From Eledone cirrhosa (taxonomy: Eukaryota): a DNA stretch of 64,000 bases. Positions 1 through 53,310 of this stretch are shown in pieces. The stretch is from contig OZ024742.1 of NCBI GenBank assembly GCA_964016885.1, positions 145,390,001 through 145,454,000 of the forward strand, given 5' to 3'. The notes below the pieces were generated by a model. The model saw only the letters and a program-made list of their open reading frames with translations, searched no databases and had not been told where the DNA came from. The stretch's first letter is position 1. Each line of letters opens with the position of its first letter. A program made the translations under genes and the position numbers.

Positions 1-1308
1 CGGCTCCTCGGAGGACTTCGCCTCCCTGTCCGAGAGACGCGGCAGGCCGTGGAGGTATGGACAGAAGTCCACTTCCCCAACCGGTTCCCCGCCCATTCCG
101 AACAATCTGGCAAAGTGCTTTTGAAAAGCCTCGCACATCTGCTTAGGTTCAAGGATCACCCGTCCATCTTGGTCTCGCAAAGACCGGATAGTGGATCTAC
201 TCCCTCTTTTGGCTTCTGTCACGCGGGCCCAGCTAACAGCTTTGGTCCCCTCGTTTTCCAGGGCACGTATTTTGCTTCGGACGATGCAGCCTTCGTGTTT
301 CGCGACGAAGAACTGGCCCAGGGCCGTTCTCGACGCTAGCACTCTGGCCACGTCGCCGCTTCTAATTGCCTCTTCTACATTATCTACCAACTCCCTTTCC
401 TTCCTATTTCTATTTGAGGCTACTAAATTCTATAGAGACTACTCTAATCTCTCTTTTGAGAGATCCCCACAACCTGCTGTTGACGAAGGCACCCGTCAAC
501 CGCTCCTTAACTAAAGTGTTAATCCGGTCCCTGTAAGCCTTACTTGCCGGTAAGGACAAGTTGAGCTTCCAGTAACCGGGTCCCTGTCTATGCGTTCTGT
601 CAAGGTTGACTATGCAGGTCACTAACTTGTGGTCTGAATAGCCAACCATGAGCATTTTTGGACAACTTAAAAAGTCCTTATCCTTATTTCTAACTAAGAA
701 CCTATTTAGGTACGACCTAGATGATCCGCTGAGGTTTGCCCAAGTCCAGGTTGGCGCAGTCGGAAAATCTAGTCGATATCTATCGGCCAGGTCAAATCGA
801 CCGATTAACCCTTTGAGGCTGTTACACCCCTCTCTATCGGGACAGGCCCCTACGTAGTCCCAACGTGCATCTATGATACCATTCCAGTCCCCACTAATAG
901 CAAGGAGCGGGACGTCCCTAGAAAAGTCTCCAGACGATGGAAGAAGTCCGGCCGCGTTGACTCAAAATGGCCGTAGACGGCTACCAGCCTAAACGCTCCG
1001 CCTTCACCACTGTCAAGGTCCAGAACCACTAGTCGACCTTCCGGGTCCAAATGTACCGTCTGTGTTGCGAGACCCAGATGTTTTTGCAGCAGAACGACAA
1101 CCCCACCCCCACATCCGGGCTGACAGAGAGATGCATGCATCTCAAAGTCATCAAAGGTGGGGGCCAGCTGTCGCACGTTGCTGATCCGGGCCTCGCAAAT
1201 AACCATCACATCTATACGTTGTGACCTGAGGTCATTTAGAAGCATTGCTTGCTTCCAAGTTGAGCCCAGGCCACGCGCATTTAGACAGCTTACTCTTAGC
1301 ATAGCCAT
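1..1308 (-). pseudogene. LINE ORF2 N-terminus (AP endonuclease and linker), frameshifted
   Basis: MAMLRVSCLNARGL...VICEAR...GGGVVVLL...LVAVYG, then SDHKLV...YWKLNLSL in the next frame. Confidence 0.85.
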
Positions 1309-1332
1309 GTTGGTGGTGAAGAGAAAAAGCAC

Positions 1333-3080
1333 TTACCTCTCTGCGTCCCGGGTATCGGGCTGCACAATTTCCATGAGGGTGGGGGATGGGTTGTTGGGTG
1401 GGGTAGTGGTTTGTGGAAGTGTAGGGGCATCAGTGTGTTGTGTGGTTGGGGTGTTTGGAGTTGTGTGGGTGTTTGAGGAGGGGGTGGGTAAGTTTTTTAG
1501 GAGGACGCGGTTAATGGGCCCGACGCAGGGGGGGGGGGGGGGCACGTCCTCTTTAAAGTTGTTTTTTTTTAGTGTTTTATATGTGTCCTCTGGGGCCTTA
1601 ATTATTTTGAGGTGGGAGAAATCCCCTGCCTGGGTGCAGTTAGGCCCTTGGGTTTTTACTAAATTGTTGTTGTATACAATGTTTAGCAGTTTTTTATTTC
1701 TTGTGTTTATGTATGCGTATGCATGTTTTTGTTTTTGTGTGGTGTTTTTGTTTGCTGTTGTTGTGTGCTCTTTTGTGTTGGTGTCTGTGTTATGTTTTGG
1801 GGAGGGGTTGTTTTCATTTGTGTGTCTGAGGTGTTTTCTTTTTTTTCTTTTGATTGTGTGGAAGTGCTCCTCCTCGTCTGACGTCGAACGAGGGTCATCT
1901 TCCGCGTTGGAGGGGAGGGGTAGATTTTCGGGTTGTGTTTGCGGTGCGGGTGTTTTGGAAATTGTTTTTTTTTTTAGGGGGGGGGGGCAGTGTTTTGTTT
2001 TGATTTGAGCTGTGGTTGTTGTTTTTGTAGTGGTGGTTGTGGTGATTGTGTTGGTTGTGCAGTTGTTGGTGGTGTAGGCAGGATTGGGGTTTTCTTTTTA
2101 AGTTGAGGACAGACAGCCCTCAGGTGACCTCTGGCTCCACAGAGGTAACACGAGGGCCGCCTACCCTCAACGGTAATGTTGATAAAAGTTTGATCATGCA
2201 GTATGACACGTTCAGGGATCTGAGCGATGCTTTCGGGCCTCATTTGAACTACAAGTTCGAGGCCCGTTCCACTGAACGCGTCACCCGATACCTTTCCCAT
2301 GGATATTAGTATCATCGTCTAGGTCCAGGAAACCTGTCAATACCCACCATATGTCCATAATCGGAAGGATGGCGTGAATTTTTATTTTTTGTGACCTTCT
2401 ACCCATGTACGTAGGGTCGAAGGTGTATGCGGTGGATGTGATTGGTTTTATTGACAGTTTCGCTGCTGTATCCCTGTCCTTCATGAGAATGGATAGACTC
2501 CCGTAGAGTCTATCCTTCTGAATGAATATGATGTCTTTCATGACATCTTTTAAAACCAGCTCTATCTCACTCTATGATGGTTTTTTGCTTTTGTTTGAGA
2601 CTGTCCTAAACATGACAGTGTTTAGAAGTCTCTGGCTTTTTAGTTCCGGGAGGGGGGAATCGAAAATGATCCATTTTCCCAGTACACTATGTATTTTTTG
2701 GCATCTGCCAGTAGCTCCTTCGCTTTGCTTTTATCTACTGGCAGATAGTCGAGGGTTTTCCTTGCCGTCTGGGCGAAGGAGACCTTTTCCTTGTTTGTGT
2801 TGCTATTGTAGTTGGTGGTGTTGTTGTTATCATTGTTGTTGTTATCATTGTTGTTTTTGTTGTCTTTATTGTTGCTGTTGTTGTCGTTGTTGTTGTTTTC
2901 AGTTTCTTGTGTCGTTGTGGTTACATCAAGTTGTCGGTCAGCAGGTGGAGAAAGTTCTACCTCTGGCTGACCTCTGCCTTTGGCATCTGCTGCTGTGTCA
3001 GTGGCAGGAGGAAGCTGTGAGTTTAGCTTCCCTTTTCTTTCTTTGAATGTTGGTGAAGCTGCTTCAGCCATTTTTATCAA
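1333..3080 (-). pseudogene. LINE ORF1 (gag-like zinc-knuckle protein), frameshifted
   Basis: ORF fragments 3080-2640, 2541-2281, 2315-1974 (ITVEGRRPSCYLCGARGHLRAVCP), 1898-1707 and 1545-1333; some breaks lie next to G/T homopolymers. Confidence 0.8.
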
Positions 3081-3287
3081 AGAAGGAAATTTTTCGATAG
3101 ATAAAAATGTTTTTTTTTCAACACAATTTCGCCTAAAGGCGTAGAATAATTTGAGAGACTGACTAGATCAAAATTTGACCTGGGTGTCCCTCTACAAAAT
3201 GGTACAAAAATTAAAGTTTACAGTTTGGAATTTCTATGTAAATTTAGGCAGAACTTACCCTGCAAGTTTTACGCGTGTGTCCATCCC

Positions 3288-3405
<118 letters not shown>

Positions 3406-5299
3406 CAGACAGACAGAAATAGACGGATAAATGGATGGGTTTTGGTTTGGGAATATATATATATATAAAAAAAAACTTGAGAAGAAAGAAGAATATTGCG
3501 TGGTTGCAAATGGGTTATATATGATAAAAATAGTCCTTCGTCAGTGATTTTCCAACCATCATTGGTATTTCATCGCATTAAAAATCAGATACCTCAGGTT
3601 GGTGCGAGCAATAACTAAAAAAAGTTATTGGGACCAGTAATTCGCGTAAAGCGAGGGGGACAAGTAAACAACATAGAAGGATAAAAGCAAACCGAAGATA
3701 GGAAAATAAACAAGCAACATGGTTGTCCGGTCAGCATAAGCTGGGTGGATTTCATAAGCGAGAGAGGTACAGACCGCCCGATGTGTGTGAGGTGTAAGCA
3801 AGAAGAGACCCAATACAAGCCAAACGGGAGGAAGTGAGAAGGGGAGAAACAGAATATATATATATATATAAGATAGATGGATGAATAGATATTAACATGA
3901 TGCTGTTGATGAATACACTCCAGTTTCTGGACCTTATATATATGTTATCTTCTCACTCTACATTTCCTATTGCTACTTATTGGCATCTGCTACCTGAGCT
4001 GGTTGGTTTTGTGTCACCTCTACCTATATTATGTTTACTCCCTTGAAAACTTCAAACTTACATCTAGTTCTTCTCCCACAGAAGATACTTTTGGAATCCC
4101 ACTTTTCCCATTTTTCTTCTTGCTCAAGAAGAACATGGACTACACCGACCTCACAAGAGTTTGGGGAGCCTACGAAAGCTATGGGAACAGCCTCTTCTTC
4201 TTGATTAAGCTTTAAAGAAAAAGAAATGTGGGTAGGAAGGAACTGCGAATTTGATAATTTTTATAGGGATTTAACAGAGAGGTGGGGAGAATGGGGGACA
4301 GATGTAAGGGAGATAGAGAAAGTGGGTGAGAGAGATAGAGAGAAAGAGAGAGGGGGACCAGTTATTGTAATGTTTTGGTGACTGATTAAATGAGGTCTTG
4401 TCAATCAAGTGAATGCGGTTGAGTGGTGTCTTCTATACATCCACTACCGGTGTCATAACCAAGTTCCTCCTCCAGCTCACTCTGTACAGCATTGCCCTTT
4501 GAATTTCTCCTGCCTTCAACCCGGTATCCTTTTCAAGAACATCATTCAGTGTGATGCACTCATCAGGTTTTCCAGAAAAGGACTACCTTAATTATCTTTG
4601 AAAAATGAAGTTAAAAGAAATAAAAGTTTAGCTTCAAGATTGGATTTGCTCACCCACCTACTTTCTTCACTTCCCTCTTTCTTATCATTTCTTTCTCTTT
4701 CTTCTCTCACTTCTATTTCCTGACATCTTTCTCACATTGTTTCTTGATCATTCTGTCATATGGACAGATAGCATTAAAAGAATTATAAATAAAGGCACAA
4801 TATTTACCCTTGCACAACATTTTCTTCCATTCGAACAATTAGTTTGTGGTCGTCTGGCACTGTAGGAACCAAAGGTTCGGGCGTCCATTCCTGTACGATT
4901 TGTTCTTTCTCCTTGAAACAATAAAGACTGCATTGAAATGTATCATAATTATTGTTTTCTCAGATTAGCATAAGATTGTATACTTATGGGGTAGGGTAAA
5001 ATCCGGGATCTGTAGAAACTGGTAATATTCTGAGCTGGCAGCAGTTTCTTTTCCTGTATTTATCAGTAGACATAGCAAAATATAAGATATAAGCTCCTAA
5101 TTTGGAAACACAAACTCCCTATCTGATATAACAACTACCAGTTTGATGTGTATATTGTTCAGTTCTTTGTTTTAGCCATCACGGCCAAGGTCAAATATAG
5201 AGACAATTGTCTTGTACTCTTCATTGCGTATTGAGAAGAAGAGGCATTGCACATCAAACTCTAAACTTCTACCGTTATGTCACTCTATTAAGACCGATA

Positions 5300-11596: not shown

Positions 11597-11597
<1 letters not shown>
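11001..11597 (+). mobile_element. Second copy of the same pLTR-like sequence, interrupted by a solo LTR
   Basis: ctagacccacatgatcaacgaaac|insert|aattgtcagtactttaaataaagcccttattgtacagccaaccatgttaatcttcattctttaacta matches ~10720-10809; flanked by (TA)n. Confidence 0.8.
11035..11372 (-). mobile_element. Solo LTR related to the LTRs at 40817 and 42447
   Basis: 4 bp TSD AAAC (11031-11034 and 11373-11376); long near-identity (atgtaacaaggagacatgg...gaagggcaaa) to the LTR pair at 40.8/42.4 kb. Confidence 0.9.
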
Positions 11598-11627
<30 letters not shown>

Positions 11628-11916
11628 CAAATAACGAAACGAAATTAAATTTCGTTTCATTTGTAACTCACTTTTGTATGACTGACGCTTAAACAATTAA
11701 GTTAAAGATGTACATCCATATATGTATACTGAAATACTAGTATGTATATGAATACACACACGTATACATATGTAGATGTACCAAGTTTTTTCACTGGTCA
11801 CTTTACTGTGAGTGGCCAGCTATTCTGTATGTAAACACGCAGACAAACCGGTTTTTAGAGTCATACTGGTTTTTGAGGAAACACCTTTCCTCTATTCTCC
11901 AGAAAGCCAGACAAGG

Positions 11917-11961
11917 AATATTGAACTAGTTTCGTTGTTGTTACAACTCATCAGCAATATT
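11917..11961 (-). ncRNA. Type I hammerhead ribozyme, array unit 1
   Basis: Minus strand AATATTG-CTGATGA-GTTGT aaca ACAAC-GAAA-CTAG-TT-CAATATT: 7 bp stem I, full core, 5 bp stem II, palindromic stem III ACTAGT, GUU cleavage triplet. Confidence 0.88.
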
Positions 11962-12384
11962 TACCTATCTTCCGGCCTCTCTAGAGAATCGTAAAAGCAC
12001 ATATCGTTATATGCTTTTTCTATGAAAATTAGTAGTGGGCTGACTAATTTGCATAGAGTGTGAGTAAGTACCGGTTCAACGGAGACGATAAAAACAAATA
12101 ACGAAACGAAATTAAATTTCGTTTCATTTGTAACTCACTTTTGTATGACTGACGCTTAAACAATTAAGTTAAAGATGTACATCCATATATGTATACTGAA
12201 ATACTAGTATGTATATGAATACACACACGTATACATATGTAGATGTACCAAGTTTTTTCACTGGTCACTTTACTGTGAGTGGCCAGCTATTCTGTATGTA
12301 AACACACAGACAAACCGGTTTTTAGAGTCATACTGGTTTTTTGAGGAAACACCTTTCCTCTATTCTCCAGAAAGCCAGACAAGG

Positions 12385-12429
12385 AATATTGAACTAGTTT
12401 CGTTGTTGTTACAACTCATCAGCAATATT
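12385..12429 (-). ncRNA. Type I hammerhead ribozyme, array unit 2
   Basis: Identical to the unit 1 motif. Confidence 0.88.
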
Positions 12430-12851
12430 TACCTATCTTCCGGCCTCTCTAGAGAATCGTAAAAGCACATATCGTTATATGCTTTTTCTATGAAAATTAG
12501 TAGTGGGCTGACTAATTTGCATAGAGTGTGAGTAAGTACCGGTTCAACGGAGACGATAAAAACAAATAACGAAACGAAATTAAATTTCGTTTCATTTGTA
12601 ACTCACTTTTGTATGACTGACGCTTAAACAATTAAGTTAAAGATGTACATCCATATATGTATACTGAAATACTAGTATGTATATGAATACACACACGTAT
12701 ACATATGTAGATGTACCAAGTTTTTTCACTGGTCACTTTACTGTGAGTGGCCAGCTATTCTGTATGTAAACACACAGACAAACCGGTTTTTAGAGTCATA
12801 CTGGTTTTTGAGGAAACACCTTTCCTCTATTCTCCAGAAAGCCAGACAAGG

Positions 12852-12896
12852 AATATTGAACTAGTTTCGTTGTTGTTACAACTCATCAGCAATATT
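12852..12896 (-). ncRNA. Type I hammerhead ribozyme, array unit 3
   Basis: Identical to the unit 1 motif. Confidence 0.88.
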
Positions 12897-13318
12897 TACC
12901 TATCTTCCGGCCTCTCTAGAGAATCGTAAAAGCACATATCGTTATATGCTTTTTCTATGAAAATTAGTAGTGGGCTGACTAATTTGCATAGAGTGTGAGT
13001 AAGTACCGGTTCAACGGAGACGATAAAAACAAATAACGAAACGAAATTAAATTTCGTTTCATTTGTAACTCACTTTTGTATGACTGACGCTTAAACAATT
13101 AAGTTAAAGATGTACATCCATATATGTATACTGAAATACTAGTATGTATATGAATACACACACGTATACATATGTAGATGTACCAAGTTTTTTCACTGGT
13201 CACTTTACTGTGAGTGGCCAGCTATTCTGTATGTAAACACACAGACAAACCGGTTTTTAGAGTCATACTGGTTTTTGAGGAAACACCTTTCCTCTATTCT
13301 CCAGAAAGCCAGACAAGG

Positions 13319-13363
13319 AATATTGAACTAGTTTCGTTGTTGTTACAACTCATCAGCAATATT
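13319..13363 (-). ncRNA. Type I hammerhead ribozyme, array unit 4
   Basis: Identical to the unit 1 motif. Confidence 0.88.
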
Positions 13364-13785
13364 TACCTATCTTCCGGCCTCTCTAGAGAATCGTAAAAGC
13401 ACATATCGTTATATGCTTTTTCTATGAAAATTAGTAGTGGGCTGACTAATTTGCATAGAGTGTGAGTAAGTACCGGTTCAACGGAGACGATAAAAACAAA
13501 TAACGAAACGAAATTAAATTTCGTTTCATTTGTAACTCACTTTTGTATGACTGACGCTTAAACAATTAAGTTAAAGATGTACATCCATATATGTATACTG
13601 AAATACTAGTATGTATATGAATACACACACGTATACATATGTAGATGTACCAAGTTTTTTCACTGGTCACTTTACTGTGAGTGGCCAGTTATTCTGTATG
13701 TAAACACACAGACAAACCGGTTTTTAGAGTCATACTGGTTTTTGAGGAAACACCTTTCCTCTATTCTCCAGAAAGCCAGACAAGG

Positions 13786-13830
13786 AATATTGAACTAGTT
13801 TCGTTGTTGTTACAACTCATCAGCAATATT
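13786..13830 (-). ncRNA. Type I hammerhead ribozyme, array unit 5
   Basis: Identical to the unit 1 motif. Confidence 0.88.
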
Positions 13831-14252
13831 TACCTATCTTCCGGCCTCTCTAGAGAATCGTAAAAGCACATATCGTTATATGCTTTTTCTATGAAAATTA
13901 GTAGTGGGCTGACTAATTTGCATAGAGTGTGAGTAAGTACCGGTTCAACGGAGACGATAAAAACAAATAACGAAACGAAATTAAATTTCGTTTCATTTGT
14001 AACTCACTTTTGTATGACTGACGCTTAAACAATTAAGTTAAAGATGTACATCCATATATGTATACTGAAATACTAGTATGTATATGAATACACACACGTA
14101 TACATATGTAGATGTACCAAGTTTTTTCACTGGTCACTTTACTGTGAGTGGCCAGCTATTCTGTATGTAAACACACAGACAAACCGGTTTTTAGAGTCAT
14201 ACTGGTTTTTGAGGAAACACCTTTCCTCTATTCTCCAGAAAGCCAGACAAGG

Positions 14253-14297
14253 AATATTGAACTAGTTTCGTTGTTGTTACAACTCATCAGCAATATT
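14253..14297 (-). ncRNA. Type I hammerhead ribozyme, array unit 6
   Basis: Identical to the unit 1 motif. Confidence 0.88.
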
Positions 14298-14529
14298 TAC
14301 CTATCTTCCGGCCTCTCTAGAGAATCGTAAAAGCACATATCGTTATATGCTTTTTCTATGAAAATTAGTAGTGGGCTGACTAATTTGCATAGAGTGTGAG
14401 TAAGTACCGGTTCAACGGAGACGATAAAAACAAATAACGAAACGAAATTAAATTTCGTTTCATTTATATATATATATATATATAGGAACAAGTAAGACCC
14501 CGACGGCTGAGCTCAAGCCGTTTCGACGG

Positions 14530-14591
<62 letters not shown>

Positions 14592-16395
14592 TATGTGATT
14601 CAGTGAATTACTGGTGGTGGTGCCAAAACGAGCACTCGATGCACAGAGTGTATATATTAATAAAAACGATACAGTTTCGTTTACATGTATTTAGTTGTTT
14701 TTTTTATCGTGTATCGACATGTTACACGCGTTTCGCAGGGGATTGGCGCTTGTTTAAAATATCTGCTGTCACTGAAAGACTTATAAAGACTTGGTCAATC
14801 ATCATCATCATCGATATAACAGAAAGTACGACGATTTCTAAAACATATTCCAAGGAGACAGTCTGTTTACTCTTCTGTTTACTTTGGTGCTAAATCCACT
14901 CTGCTTTTGTAAATGTTAGCTAGAGTCCACAACAAGAAGAACTCAAACTGTCTTTTTTTACTAATCTAAACTATAAACATATAGAATAGTAAGAAACAGC
15001 TGGATGTAATGCCATTTTCAAGTGATATATGGATGTAATTTAGACTTTTGGGCCATGTTCTGGCCTGAAAATAAATTGTATCCGAAGTCATAAAAACTTT
15101 CTATATGTCAAACAATCTCATTTGTTCTTTTTTTATGTCTATATCTGAAGATTTATATCTATGTAAACAATTAATATTTATAATGTTCTATTGTCAAAGG
15201 GGAGATGAAATATAGGGTTGAACATTGGTGGCGTTTGCATCAACATCGACTGATTTTAATTATAGATTCTGGTGGTTAAAAAGTTTTCTTTGTAATTCTA
15301 TGGTTCTGTATTCGATCCTACTACAGGACGCCTTGACCAAATGTCTTCTACTATAGCCCACCTTCAAATTAAGCCTTGTGAGTGAAATTAATTAGACGGA
15401 ATTATACCAAAACCCATTGGATATTCTGTAGCTGCTCTAGTGTATCATATTTAATCAGTCACCTGGTTTAATTTCTCATTTTAACCTTTGAATGCCTTTA
15501 GGTGAATCTGACGCGAAGTTTTGGGGTTGTTGTTAAACACGACAAATACCAATAAATCTTGTTGAATATATAACTTTACTTCACTTCAGCAAAAAGGAAA
15601 AAAATAGGATTACTTCGAATCGTAAATATAAAGTTTGATTATAGTATTCACAAATGAATATAGTGTTCAAAAAGGGCTTCTGTAGTGTGCTGGAGTCTCT
15701 GTGTTTAATATGCCATGTTCGATTAAAAAGTGACAAGTTGTAGTCAGACAGTATGTGCCAGCATAAGTAATAGTAAACTCACAGTGGAAAGGAAGTTGTG
15801 TTGTCTATATGAGTGTGGTTCAAGTGTCAATGGAAGAATGCTGTCGAGCCCTTGTCGAAAGAGCCGGAATTTTGGGGATCTTTTTGTTTTGTGTTTTTGC
15901 TACGTGCTACATCTAGCTACTTGCTTGAGCAACTCGAAGTGATCCTTCTCTTTCTAGGAACCAGAGTGGGATAACCCAAAGAAAAACTTATCTCATTTAA
16001 CCTCATGTTGGTCAGCCTCTCCATATCACTGATGCCAACCCGAGATAAAGAGAAATAGCACCCAGATGTCACACGGGGGTCAGTAAGTGCGAAGAAATTT
16101 CGCTACAAATGAATATAACATGAGTCATTATTTCTTCTTCCTTTTCCCCCAGCTAGTTACAAAAGCCTAGCTAAAGGTCATAGCCACTTAACTTCCTCCC
16201 AGAACTAAGTTTCACGAATAAGTAAGAGAAGGTGACAATCACTCTACGTAACTTGAAACGAGTAAATAAATGAAAAATTAGATTTCCTGCACATTAACTT
16301 AGCAAATATTGAGTTGGAAATGAATCTTTGAAAAAGTACTCGAAATAATTATAGTATTTCATGTGACTCTAAGAGTAGTTTAGCAAACAGACATG

Positions 16396-18821: not shown

Positions 18822-18890
18822 ATTTTATTATGCGCATTTCAAAAACAAACATCATCATGCAATAATATTTGTGTTTTCATCAGATAAAAC
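18822..18890 (-). ncRNA. Type I hammerhead ribozyme (mirror copy, left arm)
   Basis: Exact reverse complement of 19011-19079. Confidence 0.85.
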
Positions 18891-19010
18891 AGGAGAACAT
18901 GATATGAAGGCTAAAAAACACTTGTGGATAGTGCAGTTTTAAATCAATATATGTTGATTTAAAACTGCACTATCCACAAGTGTTTTTTAGCCTTCATATC
19001 ATGTTCTCCT

Positions 19011-19079
19011 GTTTTATCTGATGAAAACACAAATATTATTGCATGATGATGTTTGTTTTTGAAATGCGCATAATAAAAT
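19011..19079 (+). ncRNA. Type I hammerhead ribozyme (right arm of palindrome)
   Basis: GTTTTAT-CTGATGA-long imperfect stem II (aaacacaaatatt...atgtttgttttt)-GAAA-TGCGCA-TA-ATAAAAT; palindromic stem III ATGCGCAT, AUA triplet, overlapping AATAAA. Confidence 0.85.
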
Positions 19080-26951: not shown

Positions 26952-26992
<41 letters not shown>

Positions 26993-26995
26993 TGT

Positions 26996-27069
<74 letters not shown>

Positions 27070-27146
27070 CCCTTATCGAGTCCTCTCTGGATTTTGGTGC
27101 GTATATTTATTATTACTACATGCATACAAACATACATACATACATA

Positions 27147-29469
27147 ATAAGTGAGGGTACCCTTGAGACTGTGATAGGAAAACTCCAAGATAAGAAAACA
27201 CCAGGAAGAGACATGATTGTCGGCTACTGGTACAAAAAACTGAAATTCTATCGGAGGTATCTTACTGACCTCTACCAACAAGTTCTTAAGGGAGATACAC
27301 TTATACCAGAATGGTTGACATTAGCACAAACATTACTGGTCCCCAAGAACAAAGACACCCACTTGACAAAAAACTACCGACCCATTGCATGCCACAACCT
27401 GATGTATAAGATGTATACAGCCTGGCTGAACCTATTCCTCCAAGATCACTGTGAAAATAATAACATCATCACAGATGAACAAGCAGCTGGAAAGAAAGGG
27501 GTTTGGGGATGTGCTGAACAACTCCTAATCAACAAAACTGCGATGTCGGAGGTGCGACAACTTAGGAGGAATATGGCTACAGTCTGGCTGGACTACAGGA
27601 AAGCTTTCGATTCTGTTCGCCACTCTTGGATGATAGAGGCTCTCCAACTTGCTAAAGTCCCAGACATTATTGTCAGAGCCATAGAAAGGCTATCTTCTTC
27701 TTGGGCTACTCTCCTAAGGTTAAAGACAGAGAGGGAGGACTCTATTTTCACTGATAAAATAAAATATTGCAAGGGTATATTTCAGGGGGACAGTCTCTCT
27801 GTGATATTATTCATCTTGTCATTAAACCCCTTGTCCTTTCTGCTCAAGAAATGTGAGGGATACATCATTGGCTCACAGGAGGACAGAAATACGAACCTAA
27901 CCCATAATTTCTTTGTGGACGATCTGAAACTCTATGCCAAGAACATGGATGGGATGAAGAAAAATCTTGACCTGGTTACAACGTTCTCAAAGGATATAGG
28001 AATGGAGTTTGGCCAAGATAAATGCTCATATATAACTCTAAAGTGGGGAAAAACAACAACCCAATCTAGCAACATTGTCATCAATGGCATAACTGTTTCA
28101 CCGATATCTGATGAGGACTGCTACAGATACCTGGGGATAGATGAGAACATATCCTATAATGGCATCTGTAATAAAGAACGCGTAACCAGGAAATACTACA
28201 CCCGATTAAGAAAGATCTGGTCATCGTAACTCTCTGCGCAAAACAAAACAGTGGCTCTCAATGTGTTTGCTGTGTCTGTCCTAACACCAACGTTTAGAAT
28301 ACTCAATTGGGCGATAGACGAAATCCGAGCAGTTGATGTTGGAACTCGAAAAATACTAAACAACACCGGAAACTTCCACATCAACAGTGACATAGACCGC
28401 CTTTACTTGAAACGTAAGCAGGGAGGAAAAAGCCTAACATCGGTCCAGACAACATTTGAATGTCGCATCATATCTCTCCGACAATATCTACGAACCTCGA
28501 AGCGTAGGAGCCCGTTTCTATCTGCATGAAACAGATAAGATCATGAGAGTTGGGAAGGAACTTCTCGAGAGATATTCCCTGTGTGATAATCAAAAACTCA
28601 CACCCAGGGATGTCGCTCAGCAGTATCGCAGTGACTCCATGGATGAAAAACTGCATGCTTATCAGCAAAAAAATCATGCATGGATATGTTGCCAGGAAGC
28701 TCCAGAGTGAAAGTAATATAGATAAGGAAAGTAGTCTATGGTGGACCAACAACCGCTATATTGGCTCCCACTTTGAAGGATACGCTTTTGCAATCCAAGA
28801 ACAGGAGATTAACACGAAATACCTGATTCACAAAAGAGATAGGGATGCAGGCAAAACACCTAAATGTGATAACAAGTGCAGACTCTGCAGAACTAACATC
28901 GAGGATATCACCCATGTCATCAGCAGCTGTCCAAAGATGTCATCGCGGTACTATCTACCTATGAGGCATGATGTAGTGGCCAAAACACTGTACAATGCAG
29001 TTCGTAAAAAAGATAGGCCCGATAATAAACACATTAAAAGCTACAGCAATGTGGAAGACATAATGTACATAATATGAAAGAGTACTGGTGGAATGTTCCA
29101 GTAAAAACCTCAATAAAATGCAGGCATAACAGACCAGATATTATGATATGGGACAGGGAGAAGAAAGCATGCACAGTAGTGGAAATTAGCTGCCCAGCAG
29201 ATGCCAATATAATATCAAAGATTAGCGAAAAGGAGAATATTTATGCAGAACTGATGAGAAATCTGCAGATACTCCACCCTGATTACACCTTCAGATTTAT
29301 GCCTGTGATTATTGGGGCACTGGGGTATGTTAGTAACTGCTTCAATACAAATCTTGAGAAGCTAGGCTTCACAGGAACAGAAAGAACACAATTAGTTAGG
29401 AAATTACAAGTACAATCCATTAATGGAACAGTAAAAATATGTAAAACATTCCAAAAATGTTGCATCTAA
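27147..29469 (+). pseudogene. Reverse transcriptase / zinc knuckle / restriction-like endonuclease ORF, disrupted
   Basis: In-frame stop at 28227-28229 and frameshifts near 28525, 28670 and 29075. Confidence 0.9.
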
Positions 29470-30446: not shown

Positions 30447-32164
30447 CATACATACATACATACATACATACATACATACATACATACATACATACATACA
30501 TACATACATACATACATACATACATACATACATCGCGAGAGGGAGGGTGTGTTTGAGAGAGAGACAGAATTGTGATAGTGAGAGTGGGAAATTTATTGTA
30601 TTTTACATGTTCTCTGTTACTTTGGTGGTGTTTCCTCTTTTCTGTGCCCTATAGCGAGATGTTTGCGTTGCGTGAGAAGTGACAGCTCATACCACCATTC
30701 AGGAAAGTCAAGTCAATGCATCAGCTGCAATGGAAGGCTAACATTTTTTGAAAATATATCGTCTGTTTTCTGTGTCCCAAAAAAGATTTTTTATTTATTT
30801 TATTATCAGTACATCCTGTAAAGTGGTTGGTGATAGCAAAGGTAGTCAACTGTAGAAAGCTTGTTAAAAAATGTGATAAGGAGACTTTTCAGTTGTGTCA
30901 ATGGCACGACAATACCTCTAGTGTTGACTCGATTAAACACACACAGTATACTCTGTAAAATGGTTGCTGATAGGAAGACTATCCAGCTATAGAAAACGTG
31001 TCAAACAACGTGTTGTTATCTTAGTGAGTAAAATGTCTATTTATACATTGATAAATTAGCTTTAGGAAATGGAAGTGGATCAACTATTTCCTTCTTTTAT
31101 AGCAAGTCCACAGAGTGGCAGTGAAAGAATTAGTGGGATCGTTGTATGAACGGTCTTTTTTTTTTTCTTTTTTTTTTTGTCCCTTCAACGTAGGTGATTC
31201 AGGGAATGAGAGAGCGAGAGAGAGAACGGGGGGAAATAGCCATAGTACTTGATTAGGACTATATTTATCGACACCGAAGGGGTGAAAGACAAAACTAACC
31301 TCAGCAGGAATTGAACTCAGAGCATAGATAGCTGGAACAAATACCACGAAGTATTCTATCCGACACTCTAACGACTCTGACTTTAAAATATCTATTGCTA
31401 AGTACAATCCATAGTTAACTTAACTGGTTGTAAAACATGAGAAACCTTGTATCTATTCGCTGTTTTATCAACGGTCTTGTTCTGAACTGTTTGGTTACTA
31501 TATTAGACCAGACGAGTGTTTCCGTCTTACCACTGCTGAGATTTAAAACAATTCTTATCTCATTTCTAATATGTTTTATCATTTAAGCTTATAATATGTC
31601 GAGTCCTTTACAAAGTTTCAACTGTGTTTTAGTGCATCACTTCACAAATGTAACAAAGGAATGATATAGTGTCTACTTTTTTCTCTGTAAATGTATGGCC
31701 CAATTTTCTTGCAAGGGACTAGTAAAAGCTTGATCTGTTTTGTTTTCTATTTATAAATATTGTTTGACCAGTCCTGAGTAGTTATAAGCTTGAGACAACT
31801 TACGTTCATCCGTAAACTCTCAATTACATGAACTAAAGGTAAATGGAATGTGACTGTAATTGCGAAATTTTGAATTATATGTAATTGCAGTTGGTATATG
31901 ATGTGATTATAGTAATTGTAGTGGTTTGATTGTTGCTACAGACGTGTGTTGCCTTTCATCCTTCCGAGATCGATAAAAAGTGCCGTGTCGAATCTTCATC
32001 CATATCTCTTTATCACTTCCCCTCTATCACCCTCTTTCTTTACTCTGGAAGAAATTGGCCGTATTCAGATCTGGAGAAGGCATTGGTTCCGCCAGGTTTA
32101 AACAAAATGCCCTAGAAACGTCGTTTGTCACTAAAGCACTCCTACGATTCTACCAGGAGCTACA

Positions 32165-32514
32165 TGTCCATCCATCCATCCATCCCTGCATACATACCTA
32201 CATACATACATACATACATACATACATACATACATGCATACATACATACATACATACATACATGCATACATACATACATACATACATACATACATACATA
32301 CATACATACATACATACATGCAGACATACATACATACATACATACATACATACATACATGCATACATACATACATACATACATGCATACATGCATACATA
32401 CATACATACATACATACATACATACATACATACATACATACATACATGCATACATGCATCCATCCCTGCATACATACATACATACATACATACATACATA
32501 CATACATACATACA
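32165..32514. repeat. (CATA)n microsatellite
   Basis: Long CATA run with CATG variants. Confidence 0.97.
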
Positions 32515-33197
32515 AAAGAGGAGGGCCAGCAGCTGACAATAAATGTAGGTTATGTAAAACAAAGATCGAGGATGTAAGCCACATTGTTGCCAGCTGCGAA
32601 AGAATGTCATCTCGCTACTACCTCCCCATGAGACACGATGGGATAGCTAGAACCATCTGGAACGCACTTCGGAAAACAAAATTAACAACAAACGAGGAAG
32701 AATATATTGAGACAGATGGCACTAAGGAATACTGGTGGAACCTGAAAATAAAAACTGCCACCAAATTAAAGCACAACCGGCCTGATATTGTTGTTTGGGA
32801 CCACACATTGAAAACGTGTTCTGTTGTGGAGATCAGCTACCCACTTGAAGTAAACGTTGTCAGAAAAATACAGGAGAAGGAGGACATCTACGGACCATTG
32901 ATGAGGAGTTTACAAATCCAGTATCCAAGATACACCTTTAGCTTCATACCCATCATTATTGGAGCTACGGGTTATATACCAACCCGCTAAGACCAAAGTA
33001 TGACTGAACTTGGATTTGCGGACAAAAAGCGCAGCTCCCTAATTCATAGTCTACAAATGGCTGCGATAGCTGGCACCTTCAAAATTTGCAAAACATTCTT
33101 GCGATTCAAGGGATGACAATTTCTTTTCTTTTACAACCTTGCCACCAGGAAGGTGGCCGGTCAAAAAAATATACTCGAAATGAAGAGAAAGAGATAA
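32515..33197 (+). mobile_element. R4/Dong-like LINE 3' fragment (second subfamily) in (CATA)n
   Basis: DNKCRLCKTKIEDVSHIVASC..MSSRYYLPMRHD...HNRPDIVVWD...VEISYP; flanked by CATA on both sides. Confidence 0.9.
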
Positions 33198-51555: not shown

Positions 51556-51649
51556 GTTAATTGTTTTTATTATATGCGTTTATATTTTCATTCTTAAAGA
51601 ATTGTGAACAATTTGTCATGTTATTTATACAACTGTTGATAAAGCCTGT

Positions 51650-52922
51650 TCCACATTGTCCAATGTAGGTTTCTTCATACTCAGGAACTACCTGTCTATT
51701 CCTAAGCTTCTGTATCTGCTCAGGGTCAGCCCCTCTCACAGATTTCCGTCCTGCCTCCAACGCTTCGACGACCTAATCTTCGAGAGACTCGAGTGTCTGG
51801 TAAATGTTAGACTCTCTCCGGAGTCCCGCGATCAGGCTGCGTTGCCCAAGCGATTTGGGTGTCTTGGTCTTCGTAAGTGTTCGTCCCTCTCTCTCCCCTG
51901 CTTCCTTTCCTCCACCCACGCTTTCTCCACCCTGGTGAGCAGCATCCTCTCCTCTCCAACATGGACTAGTTCCAACAGGGAGTTGGGTGAAGCTCTCCAG
52001 CGATGGAGTGAGTTGGGATTGTCTCTTCCTGAGAAGGTGGAGGACAGTCGAAGTCAGAGAGCTTGGGACAGCATAAGTTCGAAGGCCACCTTCCACTCCC
52101 TCTTCGTCCAGTCAGATCAGTTTGCAAGGTGCCGCTTACTATCTGCCAGCGCCAAATACTCAGGCGACTGGGTCGATGCCCTACCCGTGGCCAACGTTGG
52201 TGGCCTACTCAGCCTGGACGAACTTCGTGTCTCCATCCGCTTCAGAGTGGGAGCTGACGTCTGCATGGGTTTGAGGTGCCGATGCGGCAAACTCCTCGAC
52301 TCTACAGGCCTCCACGGTCTTTCTTGCCGCCTGAATGCCGGCCGCTTCGCGCGTCACACGGAGCTTATCCTCATTCTGAAGAGAGCTTTGGCCCGGGCGA
52401 ATATCCCCTCAGTCTTGAACCATCTGGGTTGTCCAGAAATGACGGTAAAAGTACCCTGTGCCCCTGGTCGAGAAGCAGGTGCCTTGTCGGGGACGTCACT
52501 GTTAGTGACTCTTTTGCTCTTTCCCACATCCTGGATGCTGCGGTTAGGACGAGAGCCACAGCTTCTGCAGCCGAGCGGAGTAACACCCTAAAATACTCTG
52601 ATCTGTCGGCCAGCTACATTTTTCAGCCTGTGGCTTTCGAGACGTTTGGGGGGGGGGGGAGTCGGACCACTGACTGCGAGGTTCCTTTCCTCACTGGCGG
52701 CTCGCCTAATAGAGGTGACTGGCGAATCTCGCGAGGGTGCTTGGCTGTTTCAGCGCATCAGCCTCGCCATCACCCGAGGCAACTCTGCGAGTGTGCTGGC
52801 TTGCCTAAAAAATCATTAGAGAGGTTGCCCAGTACTCGCGATGTTGCTGTCTTTTGCTCTGGTGTTGGCTCCGTTGTTCACCCCTTTCTTTACATTTTCT
52901 TTAATATAAAAAATAATAATGA
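51650..52922 (+). mobile_element. CRE-like LINE 3' portion (family B), best preserved copy
   Basis: 311 aa ORF (FFILRNYLSIPKLLYLLR...SGDWVDALP...CRCG...GLHGLSC...RH), then LEPSGLSRNDGK...PWSRSRCLVGDVTVSDS...KYSDL..YIFQPVAFETFG, WLFQRISLAITRGNSASV. Confidence 0.9.
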
Positions 52923-52924
52923 AA

Positions 52925-53310
52925 TTATTGTGTAAAGTGCTCAGGTGCACTACAACTCGTCAATATAGTACATAGAATAATACACAAATGCCAGGGAAGT
53001 ACATGTTTGTATGTGTTAGCTGTAGTGTTGGCGGATCTCGGGAAGCATGGAGGCCTTAAAGGATGCAGTGTCTCGACAGCTAACAACTGATGCAGGTAGT
53101 TTGTTCCATGCTTCAGCAACTCTGAGCGTGAAAAAATGTTTCCGAAAGTCATGGGAACTGTGCTGTTTTGTTACTTTGTGGGCATGTCCACGTGTGTTAG
53201 ACACATGGAAATCGAAAAGGCACTCAGGGTTGTTGTTGGCAACATGGTTAACAATTTTGTGGGTGTTTACCAAGTCAGTTGCCAGGCGTCGGAGCTTCAA
53301 TGAAATATTG
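52925..53310 (-). mobile_element. CR1-type LINE 3' fragment
   Basis: LRRLATDL...KI...TRGH..K...RKHFFTLRVAEAWNKLP...SFK. Confidence 0.85.

What the first reader, a model, noticed from the sequence alone, without database searches (positions are those of the whole stretch)
11621..14465. Candidate retrozyme: near-identical 467 bp tandem units, each with an intact hammerhead ribozyme
Seen: six full units plus 42 bp, about three variant sites in 2.8 kb, (TA)n on both flanks, no credible ORF, and one complete type I hammerhead per unit on the minus strand. Known: metazoan non-LTR retrozymes (and newt satellite 2, Schistosoma SMalpha) are tandem repeats of a few hundred bp whose multimeric transcripts self-cleave to monomers; retrozyme monomers circularise and are thought to use Penelope-like machinery. 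Inference: a young family producing 467 nt linear and circular RNAs. The unit is longer than the roughly 170-400 nt I recall for described metazoan examples, and I do not know of one described from this lineage.
Basis: partly seen in the sequence, partly recalled or inferred. Interest (0 to 1): 0.9.

Follow-up and report, generated by a model that had tools for sequence, protein, structure and literature searches.

The report
Cephalopod retrozyme with twin-primed insertions
This is one copy of a young, abundant repeat in a cephalopod genome whose 467-base units each carry a hammerhead ribozyme motif and whose insertions mostly form two inverted arms starting at two fixed points about 70 bases apart, the footprint of Penelope-like retrotransposons, so it likely spreads as a self-cut RNA circle copied by their enzyme.

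Summary
Observation confirmed: six 467-468 bp units plus 42 bp, three variants, (TA)n flanks, one type I hammerhead per unit (minus strand). Its cleavage triplet is GUU, not GUC. The family has at least 9,461 hammerhead copies in this 3.0 Gb cephalopod (likely octopod) genome.

They sit in (TA)n, with 12-16 bp target duplications where readable. An autonomous Neptune-type Penelope-like element (PLE) family in the same genome has the same short-end/long-end geometry (7 of 9 inverted pairs, 63 nt offset). Units within a locus, even across opposite arms, share one haplotype (0.74 differences versus 3.80 between loci). Arms run through the cleavage site for up to about 31 units.

Best reading: a non-LTR retrozyme whose circular monomer is likely copied rolling-circle from two coordinated priming sites by PLE machinery. 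Expression, cleavage, circularity and the partner family are not shown. A 467 bp unit is not unusual (51-972 bp reported).

The parts
11621..14465 (.). Single-armed tandem array: 6 units (467, 468, 467, 467, 467, 467 bp) plus 42 bp. The + strand is the inferred cDNA strand; the - strand is the hammerhead-bearing RNA strand.
11597..11622 (+). Left (AT)13 target microsatellite; its last bases overlap the element start (inferred priming microhomology at start site 1)
11621..11694 (+). 'Tail' of unit 1: the interval between the two fixed outer ends of the family, site 1 (unit position 1, 11621) and site 2 (positions 69-76, 11689-11696). Repeated in every unit.
   Evidence: (TA)n loose ends at both sites in run X1
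11633..11661 (.). Near-perfect hairpin inside the tail (also 12100-12128, 12568-12596, 13035-13063, 13502-13530, 13969-13997, 14436-14464). The array ends at the end of the last copy.
11917..11961 (-). Type I hammerhead, unit 1; predicted cleavage after GUU between 11924 and 11923
12385..12429 (-). Type I hammerhead, unit 2; predicted cleavage 12392/12391 (Rfam HH9 match 12369-12440)
12852..12896 (-). Type I hammerhead, unit 3; predicted cleavage 12859/12858 (Rfam HH9 match 12836-12907, with extended stem I)
13319..13363 (-). Type I hammerhead, unit 4; predicted cleavage 13326/13325
13786..13830 (-). Type I hammerhead, unit 5; predicted cleavage 13793/13792
14253..14297 (-). Type I hammerhead, unit 6; predicted cleavage 14260/14259
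12392..12858 (-). One predicted 467-nt monomer RNA, cleavage site to cleavage site. Six hammerheads would release five monomers (11924-12391, 12392-12858, 12859-13325, 13326-13792, 13793-14259).
   Evidence: fold -155.1 kcal/mol linear, -150.8 circular; z -8.9
14466..14485 (+). Right (AT)10 target microsatellite. The second, inverted arm seen at most sister loci is absent here or reduced to about 4 bases (inferred).

Best explanation
This array is one insertion of a young non-LTR retrozyme family whose minus-strand transcript is predicted to self-cleave into 467-nt monomers that likely circularise and are likely copied into (TA)n sites by the enzyme of a Penelope-like element (PLE). Steps: (1) Multimeric transcription of the hammerhead strand (inferred; promoter unknown). 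(2) Hammerhead cleavage after GUU, probably slow and helped by the double-hammerhead form through the palindromic stem III (structure shown, activity inferred). (3) Ligation to a circle by a host RtcB-type ligase (from PMC7229834, not shown here). (4) A PLE GIY-YIG/RT protein, most likely a Neptune-type dimer, nicks both strands of an AT-rich target about 12-16 bp apart (duplications shown, enzyme inferred). (5) Each freed 3' end primes by TA microhomology, one at unit position 1 and the other at position about 70-75 of the same RNA (fixed ends shown, same molecule inferred). (6) Both cDNAs run round the circle a variable number of times and are joined head to head by 0-4 nt of microhomology, giving an inverted two-armed array with a tail at one end only (architecture shown). 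In this window the second cDNA likely aborted, leaving one arm of 6.1 units.
For: Copy number: exact 18-base hammerhead motifs occur 6,193 times with GUU and 3,268 times with GUC; reversed-pattern controls give 1 and 0. Architecture: of 58 arrays in 57 stretches, 41 have one arm at site 1 and the inverted arm at site 2, 1 has both at site 2, 5 are other two-armed exceptions, 9 are single-armed (all starting at site 1 or 2) and 2 were not fully fetched; mixed versus same-site is 41 of 42, p about 1e-11. Genome-wide short inverted joins: 70 places site 1+2, 11 places site 2+2, 8 places site 1+1. Both sites are kept in subfamilies at 87-96% identity and at homologous positions in a second family at about 62-75%. 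Target duplications of 12, 13, 13 and 16 bp at four loci with non-repetitive flanks. The genome holds RT plus GIY-YIG ORFs with the Neptune/Nematis CxxxxCxxC linker. One such family has 13,570 pLTR-hammerhead motif hits, ends in (TA)n at two sites about 63 nt apart, and has one short and one long end in 7 of 9 inverted pairs. PMC11167929 shows in vitro that a PLE protein cuts and extends both strands and that the tail is the distance between two RT start sites on the hammerhead-sense RNA; polarity here is the same. Single-monomer bottleneck: mean substitutions are 0.74 within loci, 0.97 between opposite arms and 3.80 between loci, with a minimum of 3.36 over 1,000 permutations (181 units, 37 loci). 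Arms pass the cleavage site in 93 of 98 cases and only 1 of 98 ends within 5 nt of it. Arms reach 15.7 units among fetched loci and about 31 in a listed one. Hammerhead stems covary: score 0.309 versus 0.125 shuffled, 0 of 500, slid controls 0.10 or less. The monomer's minimum-energy fold contains the hammerhead.
Against: No RNA evidence was obtained. The triplet is GUU in all 181 full units of this subfamily examined; from recalled knowledge it cleaves more slowly than GUC. In the 2026 preprint 8 of 9 predicted Xenopus retrozyme dimers did not cleave in vitro, and in PMC11167929 hammerhead cleavage was dispensable for insertion. The Rfam score is below the gathering cut-off. No convincing sequence homology was found between the unit and any pLTR in 50 GIY-YIG loci, so the partner family is not identified; the tail (about 70-75 nt) is longer than those of two local Neptune-type families (about 63 and about 55 nt). 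Majority haplotypes of the two arms matched in only 9 of 12 loci with full units in both arms, and L027, L037 and L052 are mosaics. The covariation test used 12 related sequences and a hand-drawn structure, and its shuffle ignores relatedness. The second set of 20 loci was picked from listed hits with a preference for multi-hit loci, which inflates the share of two-armed arrays. Some short joins are internal junctions, not outer ends. This window's own array has only one arm.
Confidence: 0.66

Rival explanations
1. Same PLE enzyme and same two start sites, but the template is a linear, largely uncleaved multimeric transcript of an existing array. The GUU hammerhead is then a weak or dispensable passenger and circles play little part.
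For: Unprocessed RNA was the dominant substrate for the anole PLE and hammerhead mutants inserted normally (PMC11167929). The triplet is GUU. A homogeneous parent array would give homogeneous daughters. The alternating haplotypes in L027 and L037 could be copied from a heterogeneous parent. No RNA holder was listed, so circles are unseen.
Against: A linear template can only give daughters as long as the parent or shorter, yet arms reach about 31 units. Locus-private variants are fixed in every unit of both arms (for example L041, L043, L053, L055, L056), which needs a one-unit bottleneck somewhere in the ancestry. Hammerhead stems are conserved with compensatory changes, and the fold closes the two monomer ends in stem I.
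Confidence: 0.2
2. A retrozyme, but mobilised by another enzyme (a Poseidon-type PLE or a LINE with L1-style twin priming) rather than a Neptune-type PLE.
For: No pLTR homology to the Neptune-type families sampled. A PLE ORF without the CxxxxCxxC linker is also present (L134). LINE RT fragments lie in the window. Only 150 of 10,597 GIY-YIG candidates were scored.
Against: A tail at one end of inverted insertions is described as PLE-specific, and microsatellite bias is attributed to the Neptune/Naiad linker (PMC8557442), which also reports Naiads as long inactive in cephalopods. The local Neptune-type family shows the same target and the same end pairing. There is no poly(A) or 3' simple-repeat tail, and both ends are fixed; in L1 twin priming the second site is variable (recalled).
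Confidence: 0.08
3. A DNA-level satellite: arrays grow by unequal crossing-over or extrachromosomal-circle amplification, and inversions arise by fold-back at hairpins. The hammerhead is a relic of a pLTR.
For: The 2026 preprint proposes local tandem amplification after a pLTR lands. Arm ends are enriched in the hairpin-bearing first 50 bases (20 of 98, p 0.003), and L028 and L042 invert at the hairpin.
Against: It does not explain outer ends fixed at two positions, the one-of-each pairing, (TA)n targeting, 12-16 bp duplications, or 23-49 bp stubs that join site 1 to inverted site 2. Fold-back would give arms with matching ends, whereas inner ends of the two arms differ and arm lengths are uncorrelated (rho 0.00, n 41).
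Confidence: 0.04
4. A non-autonomous Helitron-type rolling-circle DNA element whose tandem copies happen to contain a hammerhead-like motif.
For: Tandem arrays, AT-rich targets and a hairpin near an end resemble Helitron derivatives (recalled).
Against: Target duplications are present. The ends are not TC...CTRR. Two-armed inversion and a covarying hammerhead point to an RNA intermediate.
Confidence: 0.02

Closest known systems
Metazoan non-LTR retrozymes (Acropora, Mytilus, axolotl; PMC7229834; bioRxiv 10.64898/2026.07.22.740005)
   Same: Dispersed tandem units of a few hundred bp, one type I hammerhead per unit, GC under 50%, no ORF, long target duplications, a self-paired monomer with the hammerhead free to form, and co-occurring PLEs. 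The palindromic stem III resembles the axolotl and newt dimer-type ribozymes.
   Different: Most multi-unit insertions examined are two inverted arms with fixed starts about 70-75 nt apart in (TA)n. A term search of the main text found 'inverted' 0 times in PMC7229834 and once, in a reference title, in the preprint. The majority triplet is GUU. The host is a cephalopod, for which searches listed no such report. RNA was shown for those families and not for this one.
Penelope-like elements, Neptune/Nematis type, and the anole Poseidon element PAc (PMC8557442, PMC3846280, PMC11167929)
   Same: Tandem plus inverted 5'-truncated arrangement, a tail at one end only, two RT start sites downstream of the hammerhead on the hammerhead-sense RNA, AT-rich or (TA)n targets, and target duplications of about 8-16 bp.
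   Different: No RT or endonuclease ORF. A full type I hammerhead with extended stem I instead of a minimal one. The tail is about 70-75 nt against 30-40 nt in those papers (about 55-63 nt in local Neptune-type families). Arms are many exact rounds of one short unit.
Non-autonomous Chlamys elements such as MRC1 (PMC8557442)
   Same: [quoted passage not shown]
   Different: They share 3' sequence with autonomous families and mostly lack canonical hammerheads. Here no such homology was found and the hammerhead is canonical in shape.
Newt satellite 2 (as summarised in PMC7229834; promoter detail recalled)
   Same: Tandem hammerhead repeat with a short palindromic helix III.
   Different: The snRNA-type promoter recalled for satellite 2 found no support here.

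Membership tests
Non-LTR retrozyme | [quoted passage not shown] | tested here: met
   463-471 bp units, at least 9,461 hammerhead motifs on many chromosomes
Non-LTR retrozyme | Type I hammerhead in every unit | tested here: met
   6 of 6 units; Rfam HH9 E 1.1e-7 but below gathering score; covariation; triplet GUU
Non-LTR retrozyme | No coding capacity, GC under 50% | tested here: met
   longest ATG ORF 30 aa, GC 0.35
Non-LTR retrozyme | No LTR, PBS or PPT | tested here: inconclusive
   No LTR in the locus maps; PBS and PPT were not searched for
Non-LTR retrozyme | Target duplications longer than 4 bp when visible | tested here: met
   12-16 bp at L038, L040, L049 and L080; the other 20 of 24 loci tested lie in TA-rich repeats where a duplication cannot be told from the repeat
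Non-LTR retrozyme | Highly self-paired monomer with the hammerhead free to fold | tested here: met
   z -8.9, 0 of 100 shuffles as stable; stem I pair probabilities 0.66-0.98, stem II 0.89-0.99
Non-LTR retrozyme | Self-cleavage of the transcript | not testable with these tools
   needs in vitro transcription
Non-LTR retrozyme | Expressed as linear and circular monomers | not testable with these tools
   no RNA holder listed; laid runs were contigs of unrecorded kind or DNA reads
PLE-mobilised element | Inverted 5'-truncated copy with a tail at one end only | tested here: met
   41 of 47 two-armed arrays with both ends seen; tail longer than the published 30-40 nt
PLE-mobilised element | AT-rich or (TA)n target | tested here: met
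PLE-mobilised element | Young autonomous PLE with the same target and end geometry in the same genome | tested here: met
PLE-mobilised element | Sequence homology to the pLTR of an autonomous PLE | tested here: inconclusive
   none convincing in 50 GIY-YIG loci, a small sample of 10,597 candidates
Autonomous PLE | ORF with RT and GIY-YIG endonuclease | tested here: not met
Helitron-type element | No target duplication; TC and CTRR termini (recalled) | tested here: not met
Newt satellite 2 type (snRNA promoter, recalled) | Octamer and proximal element shared with host snRNA genes | tested here: inconclusive
   The unit has an octamer at position 427, but 0 of 5 U2 upstream regions carry one within 320 bases and no shared proximal element was seen; the octamer lies in a conserved RNA stem

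The most novel reading that the evidence does not exclude
The genome records a two-headed rolling-circle reaction: a dimeric Neptune-type PLE protein holds one 467-nt circular ribozyme RNA and copies it from two fixed sites about 70 nt apart into both strands of a cut (TA)n target. That would be direct genomic evidence for which enzyme moves animal retrozymes and would explain the PLE tail and inverted copies as one coordinated twin-priming event. The GUU ribozyme, which outnumbers GUC copies about two to one, would be a detuned form that keeps circles closed long enough to be copied. A bolder extension that the data do not exclude (about 0.04): the circle also persists as RNA in other animals, since near-identical units appear in runs labelled as other organisms.
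Probability: 0.55. Interest if true: 0.8.

Novelty: new variant of a known kind. Interest (0 to 1): 0.63.

Why it matters
How animal retrozymes get back into the genome is an open question. A 2020 review states that their repeats show no conserved motif that could reveal the helper retrotransposon (PMC7761336), and the 2026 preprint links them to PLEs only by co-occurrence and pLTR similarity. The origin of PLE tandem/inverted structures is also called undefined (PMC8557442). Here a young, high-copy family carries the PLE integration footprint to the base: two start sites, one of each per insertion, target, duplication size and junction microhomology. Private variants also tag the template of each insertion. 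With the in vitro PLE assay of PMC11167929 this gives exact predictions: a 467-nt circle, a (TA)n duplex and a local Neptune-type protein should yield multimeric cDNA starting at positions 1 and about 70-75. A target-primed RT that writes multimers from a small circular RNA would also interest genome-writing work. The class itself is known, the architecture may prove general once looked for, and nothing at RNA level is shown, which caps the score.

Tried and rejected
(1) Rfam at gathering thresholds over the whole window: 0 matches. The miRNA and sRNA hits at relaxed E-values are far below their cut-offs and were treated as chance hairpin matches. (2) Expression: no RNA holder listed among 24 runs; this is no evidence either way. 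Run X14 (organism A, second sample, 88 million letters) covers the unit, but its kind is not on record. (3) Organism D's Hi-C run X21 gave 0 laid reads from about 1 in 100 of the run, which the tool marks as no test. (4) Junction check of this very array in run contigs: the tool skipped the repeat stretch 14435-14599, so the right junction was not bridged. (5) snRNA-type promoter: not supported. (6) Partner PLE by pLTR homology: only 12-30 base AT-rich resemblances, rejected. (7) Pfam PF26215 is not in the searchable library; PF01541 was used instead. (8) Template jumps at the cleavage site as the source of multimers: arm ends are not enriched there, and the haplotype switches readable in L037 and L052 fall elsewhere in the unit (read by eye, few cases). 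(9) The first automatic end classifier missed real ends and was replaced. Dropped before counting: a false (TA)n hit in L027, a partial older copy in L040, and a 36-bp stub in L085. (10) Whole-monomer RNAalifold on 9 subfamily members gave little covariation (4 of 146 pairs with double changes; term -1.16): too little divergence and stem I misaligned. (11) Unconstrained cofolding of two hammerhead fragments gave a different intermolecular duplex, so the double-hammerhead form is supported only by the palindrome (8-bp duplex, -6.6 kcal/mol); one folding script crashed. (12) A search for papers on GUU activity listed one paper, not read; the GUU statement is recalled. (13) No earlier findings for this genome.
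Full report
Observation. The array is as described: 11621-14465, six units of 467-468 bp plus 42 bp, three variant sites, (AT)13 and (AT)10 flanks, no ORF over 30 aa, GC 0.35. Each unit has a type I hammerhead on the minus strand. Rfam gives Hammerhead_HH9 37.7 bits, E 1.1e-7, below the gathering score of 52; nothing in the window reaches a gathering score. Stem I has 7 bp, followed by a bulge and a long extension. Stem II has 4-5 bp. Stem III is 2 bp within the palindrome ACUAGU, like the weak helix III of axolotl ribozymes that work as dimers (PMC7229834). The cleavage triplet is GUU. The monomer cut site to cut site folds at -155.1 kcal/mol (z -8.9, 0 of 100 shuffles) with the hammerhead formed; the opposite strand gives -130.4 (z -6.8).

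Host. The window lies on contig C3 of a 3.0 Gb, 1,796-contig genome. A hemocyanin unit from it scores 658 and 648 bits against PDB chains 4yd9_C and 1js8_A, against 459-502 for the matching units of 8tnv and 3j32. That the first two are squid and octopus and the others gastropod is recalled. The genes show seven units each, which from recalled knowledge fits octopods rather than squid or cuttlefish. So the host is a cephalopod, likely an octopod.

Family size. The DNA search scored 40 of 120 candidates and returned 281 matches, 150 listed, falling in 37 loci. Exact 18-base motifs at the cleavage site occur 6,193 times with GUU and 3,268 times with GUC; controls give 1 and 0. That is about 4.4 Mb or 0.15% of the genome. 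Scaling from the first 100 rows of each list (26 and 32 loci) suggests roughly 2,500 loci; this is an extrapolation. GUC subfamilies have 463-471 bp units at 87-96% identity. A second family at about 62-75% identity has a GUA triplet and the same stem III palindrome. Across 12 hammerheads from both families the stems covary: 92.8% of cells paired, score 0.309 versus 0.125 shuffled (0 of 500), slid controls 0.10 or less. Pairs with double changes number 6 versus 4.2 shuffled (38 of 500), which is not significant, and the sequences are related. A contig in run X4 differs from the window by 5 bases, among them U17 to C and a compensatory pair in stem II.

Architecture, the main new result. I fetched the 36 other loci listed and 20 GUC loci chosen from the listed C1 hits with a preference for multi-hit loci. 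With the window that gives 58 arrays. In 41, one arm begins at unit position 1-8 and an inverted arm begins at 69-76 (L082 scored 88, 75). One array has both arms at site 2 (L052). Five two-armed arrays have one irregular start (L023, L047, L051, L079, L088). Nine are single-armed and start at site 1 or site 2, this window's among them. Two ran off the fetched stretch. Mixed versus same-site pairing is 41 of 42 (p about 1e-11). Genome-wide, short inverted joins number 70 places for site 1+2, 11 for 2+2 and 8 for 1+1, where independence predicts 2:1:1; some are internal junctions. One join is a 23-bp insertion in (TA)n consisting only of the two starts. Outer ends abut (TA)n or AT-rich DNA with a few bases of overlap, and run X1 shows (TA)n loose ends at exactly these two positions (X1 may be the assembly's own sample). 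At four loci with non-repetitive flanks the target is duplicated over 12, 13, 13 and 16 bp. Inner junctions mostly overlap by 0-4 nt and fall throughout the unit; 1 of 98 arm ends lies within 5 nt of the cleavage site, and 20 of 98 lie in the first 50 bases (p 0.003). Arm lengths within a locus are uncorrelated.

Comparison with PLEs. An inverted 5'-truncated copy with a 30-40 bp tail at one end only is the PLE hallmark (PMC8557442, PMC3846280). PMC11167929 showed that a purified PLE protein, modelled as a dimer, cuts and extends both strands of AT-rich DNA and starts at two internal sites on the hammerhead-sense RNA, the tail being the interval between them. Here polarity is the same: the sites lie about 230 and 303 nt downstream of the cut on the hammerhead strand. 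The genome has 10,597 GIY-YIG candidates, 150 scored. Of 20 long ORFs read, 19 are of the type with a CxxxxCxxC linker before a C-terminal GIY-YIG (the linker altered in some copies), which marks Neptune and Nematis in PMC8557442. Copies within one family are about 97% identical in protein. That family has 13,570 hits to its pLTR hammerhead motif, ends in (TA)n at two sites about 63 nt apart, and shows one short and one long end in 7 of 9 inverted pairs among 30 loci; one pair had two long ends and one was interrupted (classed by eye from the printed ends). A second family has ends about 55 nt apart. No convincing sequence homology links the retrozyme to a pLTR in 50 loci, so the clade is inferred from target and geometry and the family is not identified.

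Template. Among 181 full units in 37 loci, mean substitutions are 0.74 within a locus, 0.97 between opposite arms and 3.80 between loci; 1,000 permutations never went below 3.36. Private variants are fixed across both arms in L041, L043, L053, L055 and L056, and the window's six units share an allele at position 421 that 168 of 181 units lack. The arms' majority haplotypes match in 9 of 12 testable loci. L027 alternates two haplotypes, as a dimer circle would, and L037 and L052 are mosaics that suggest template switching. Arms cross the cleavage site in 93 of 98 cases and reach about 31 units. A one-unit bottleneck followed by many rounds is what rolling-circle copying of one circular monomer gives. 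A linear multimer from a homogeneous parent explains homogeneity but not array growth or the origin of private haplotypes. It remains the main rival because hammerhead cleavage was dispensable for PAc and GUU is probably slow.

Mechanism. Shown from sequence: hammerhead shape and covariation, dispersal, two fixed starts paired one of each, target, duplications, junction microhomology, haplotype sharing, and the same geometry in a local PLE. Inferred: transcription, cleavage, ligation to a circle, the identity of the enzyme, and that both arms use one molecule. In this window one cDNA ran 6.1 rounds from site 1 and ended at the tail hairpin; the second likely aborted. My estimates: hammerhead retroposon of the retrozyme class 0.93, PLE machinery 0.85, circular template 0.7, whole model 0.66.

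Literature seen. PMC7229834: parts 2-4 of 6 and a term search; its supplement could not be read and may show other invertebrate retrozymes or insertion structures. PMC11167929: parts 1-2 of 4. PMC8557442, PMC3846280 and PMC7761336: passages only. All others: search listing only. Searches behind the statement that this architecture and host are not in print in the held library: retrozyme+hammerhead (49 papers, 40 listed), Penelope-like+pLTR+inverted+tail (8), hammerhead+octopus+tandem repeat (2), retrozyme+twin priming (0), cephalopod+hammerhead ribozyme (4), Penelope+non-autonomous+hammerhead+tandem+inverted (6). Subscription journals and repeat databases were not searched, so the family may already have a database name.

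Verdict. A real, young non-LTR retrozyme family in a lineage with no report found. Its value lies less in the unit than in the integration footprint, which ties retrozymes to PLE twin priming and makes that step testable. Novelty: new variant of a known kind. Interest 0.63.

Noticed in passing
window 14486-14530: A 45-bp piece of another repeat sits between the right (AT)10 flank and a (TA)29 run. Its 20-base motif occurs 20,266 times in the genome, usually as short inverted pairs 60-120 bp apart. In L051 the same sequence starts the left arm of a retrozyme insertion, which may be a template switch or a nested insertion. Its nature was not determined.
   Followed up: partly
L134:7798-9499, L135:120-361 and 2924-3455, L116:2641-3264: A second retrozyme family of about 480-510 bp, 62-75% similar, with a GUA triplet, internal (TA)n expansions, inverted arms and start sites at homologous positions about 55-60 nt apart.
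   Followed up: partly
runs X4, X5, X6, X7, X9 (organisms B, C, D, E, G): Near-identical units (about 98-99% in the longest pieces) occur at low depth in runs labelled as five other organisms. X6 and X7 share one haplotype, and X6 has a 343-nt contig with a head-to-tail join at depth 188. Several of those variants are majority alleles in organism A's run X1, so cross-contamination is the plain reading; related hosts or RNA-level presence are not excluded. Run kinds are not on record.
   Followed up: partly
L047:3189-3318, L088:4289-4417, L048:2904-2951: Three arms or fragments begin at unit position 338-346, just upstream of the hammerhead's 5' stem I strand: a possible minor third start site.
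   Followed up: no
L122, L123, L124, L125, L128, L140, L141: At least six PLE families with RT and C-terminal GIY-YIG ORFs of up to 938-1,096 codons; several carry a variant minimal hammerhead in the pLTR, one with a U-A pair in place of C3-G8.
   Followed up: partly
window 125-3167, 26955-29469, 31977-32990, 51608-52935: Broken LINE-type retrotransposon fragments (endonuclease and RT pieces; RVT_1 E 1.5e-24 at 26955-28226); no host gene was evident among ORFs of 120 aa or more.
   Followed up: no
window 18883-19065: The same hammerhead-core-like stretch appears once on each strand (19018 +, 18883 -), indicating an inverted repeat; stems were not checked.
   Followed up: no
G000:C3:307349256-307453739: A tandem cluster of about 40 U2 snRNA genes with a 2.2 kb period; no octamer within 320 bases upstream of the 5 copies read, 3 from this cluster.
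   Followed up: no
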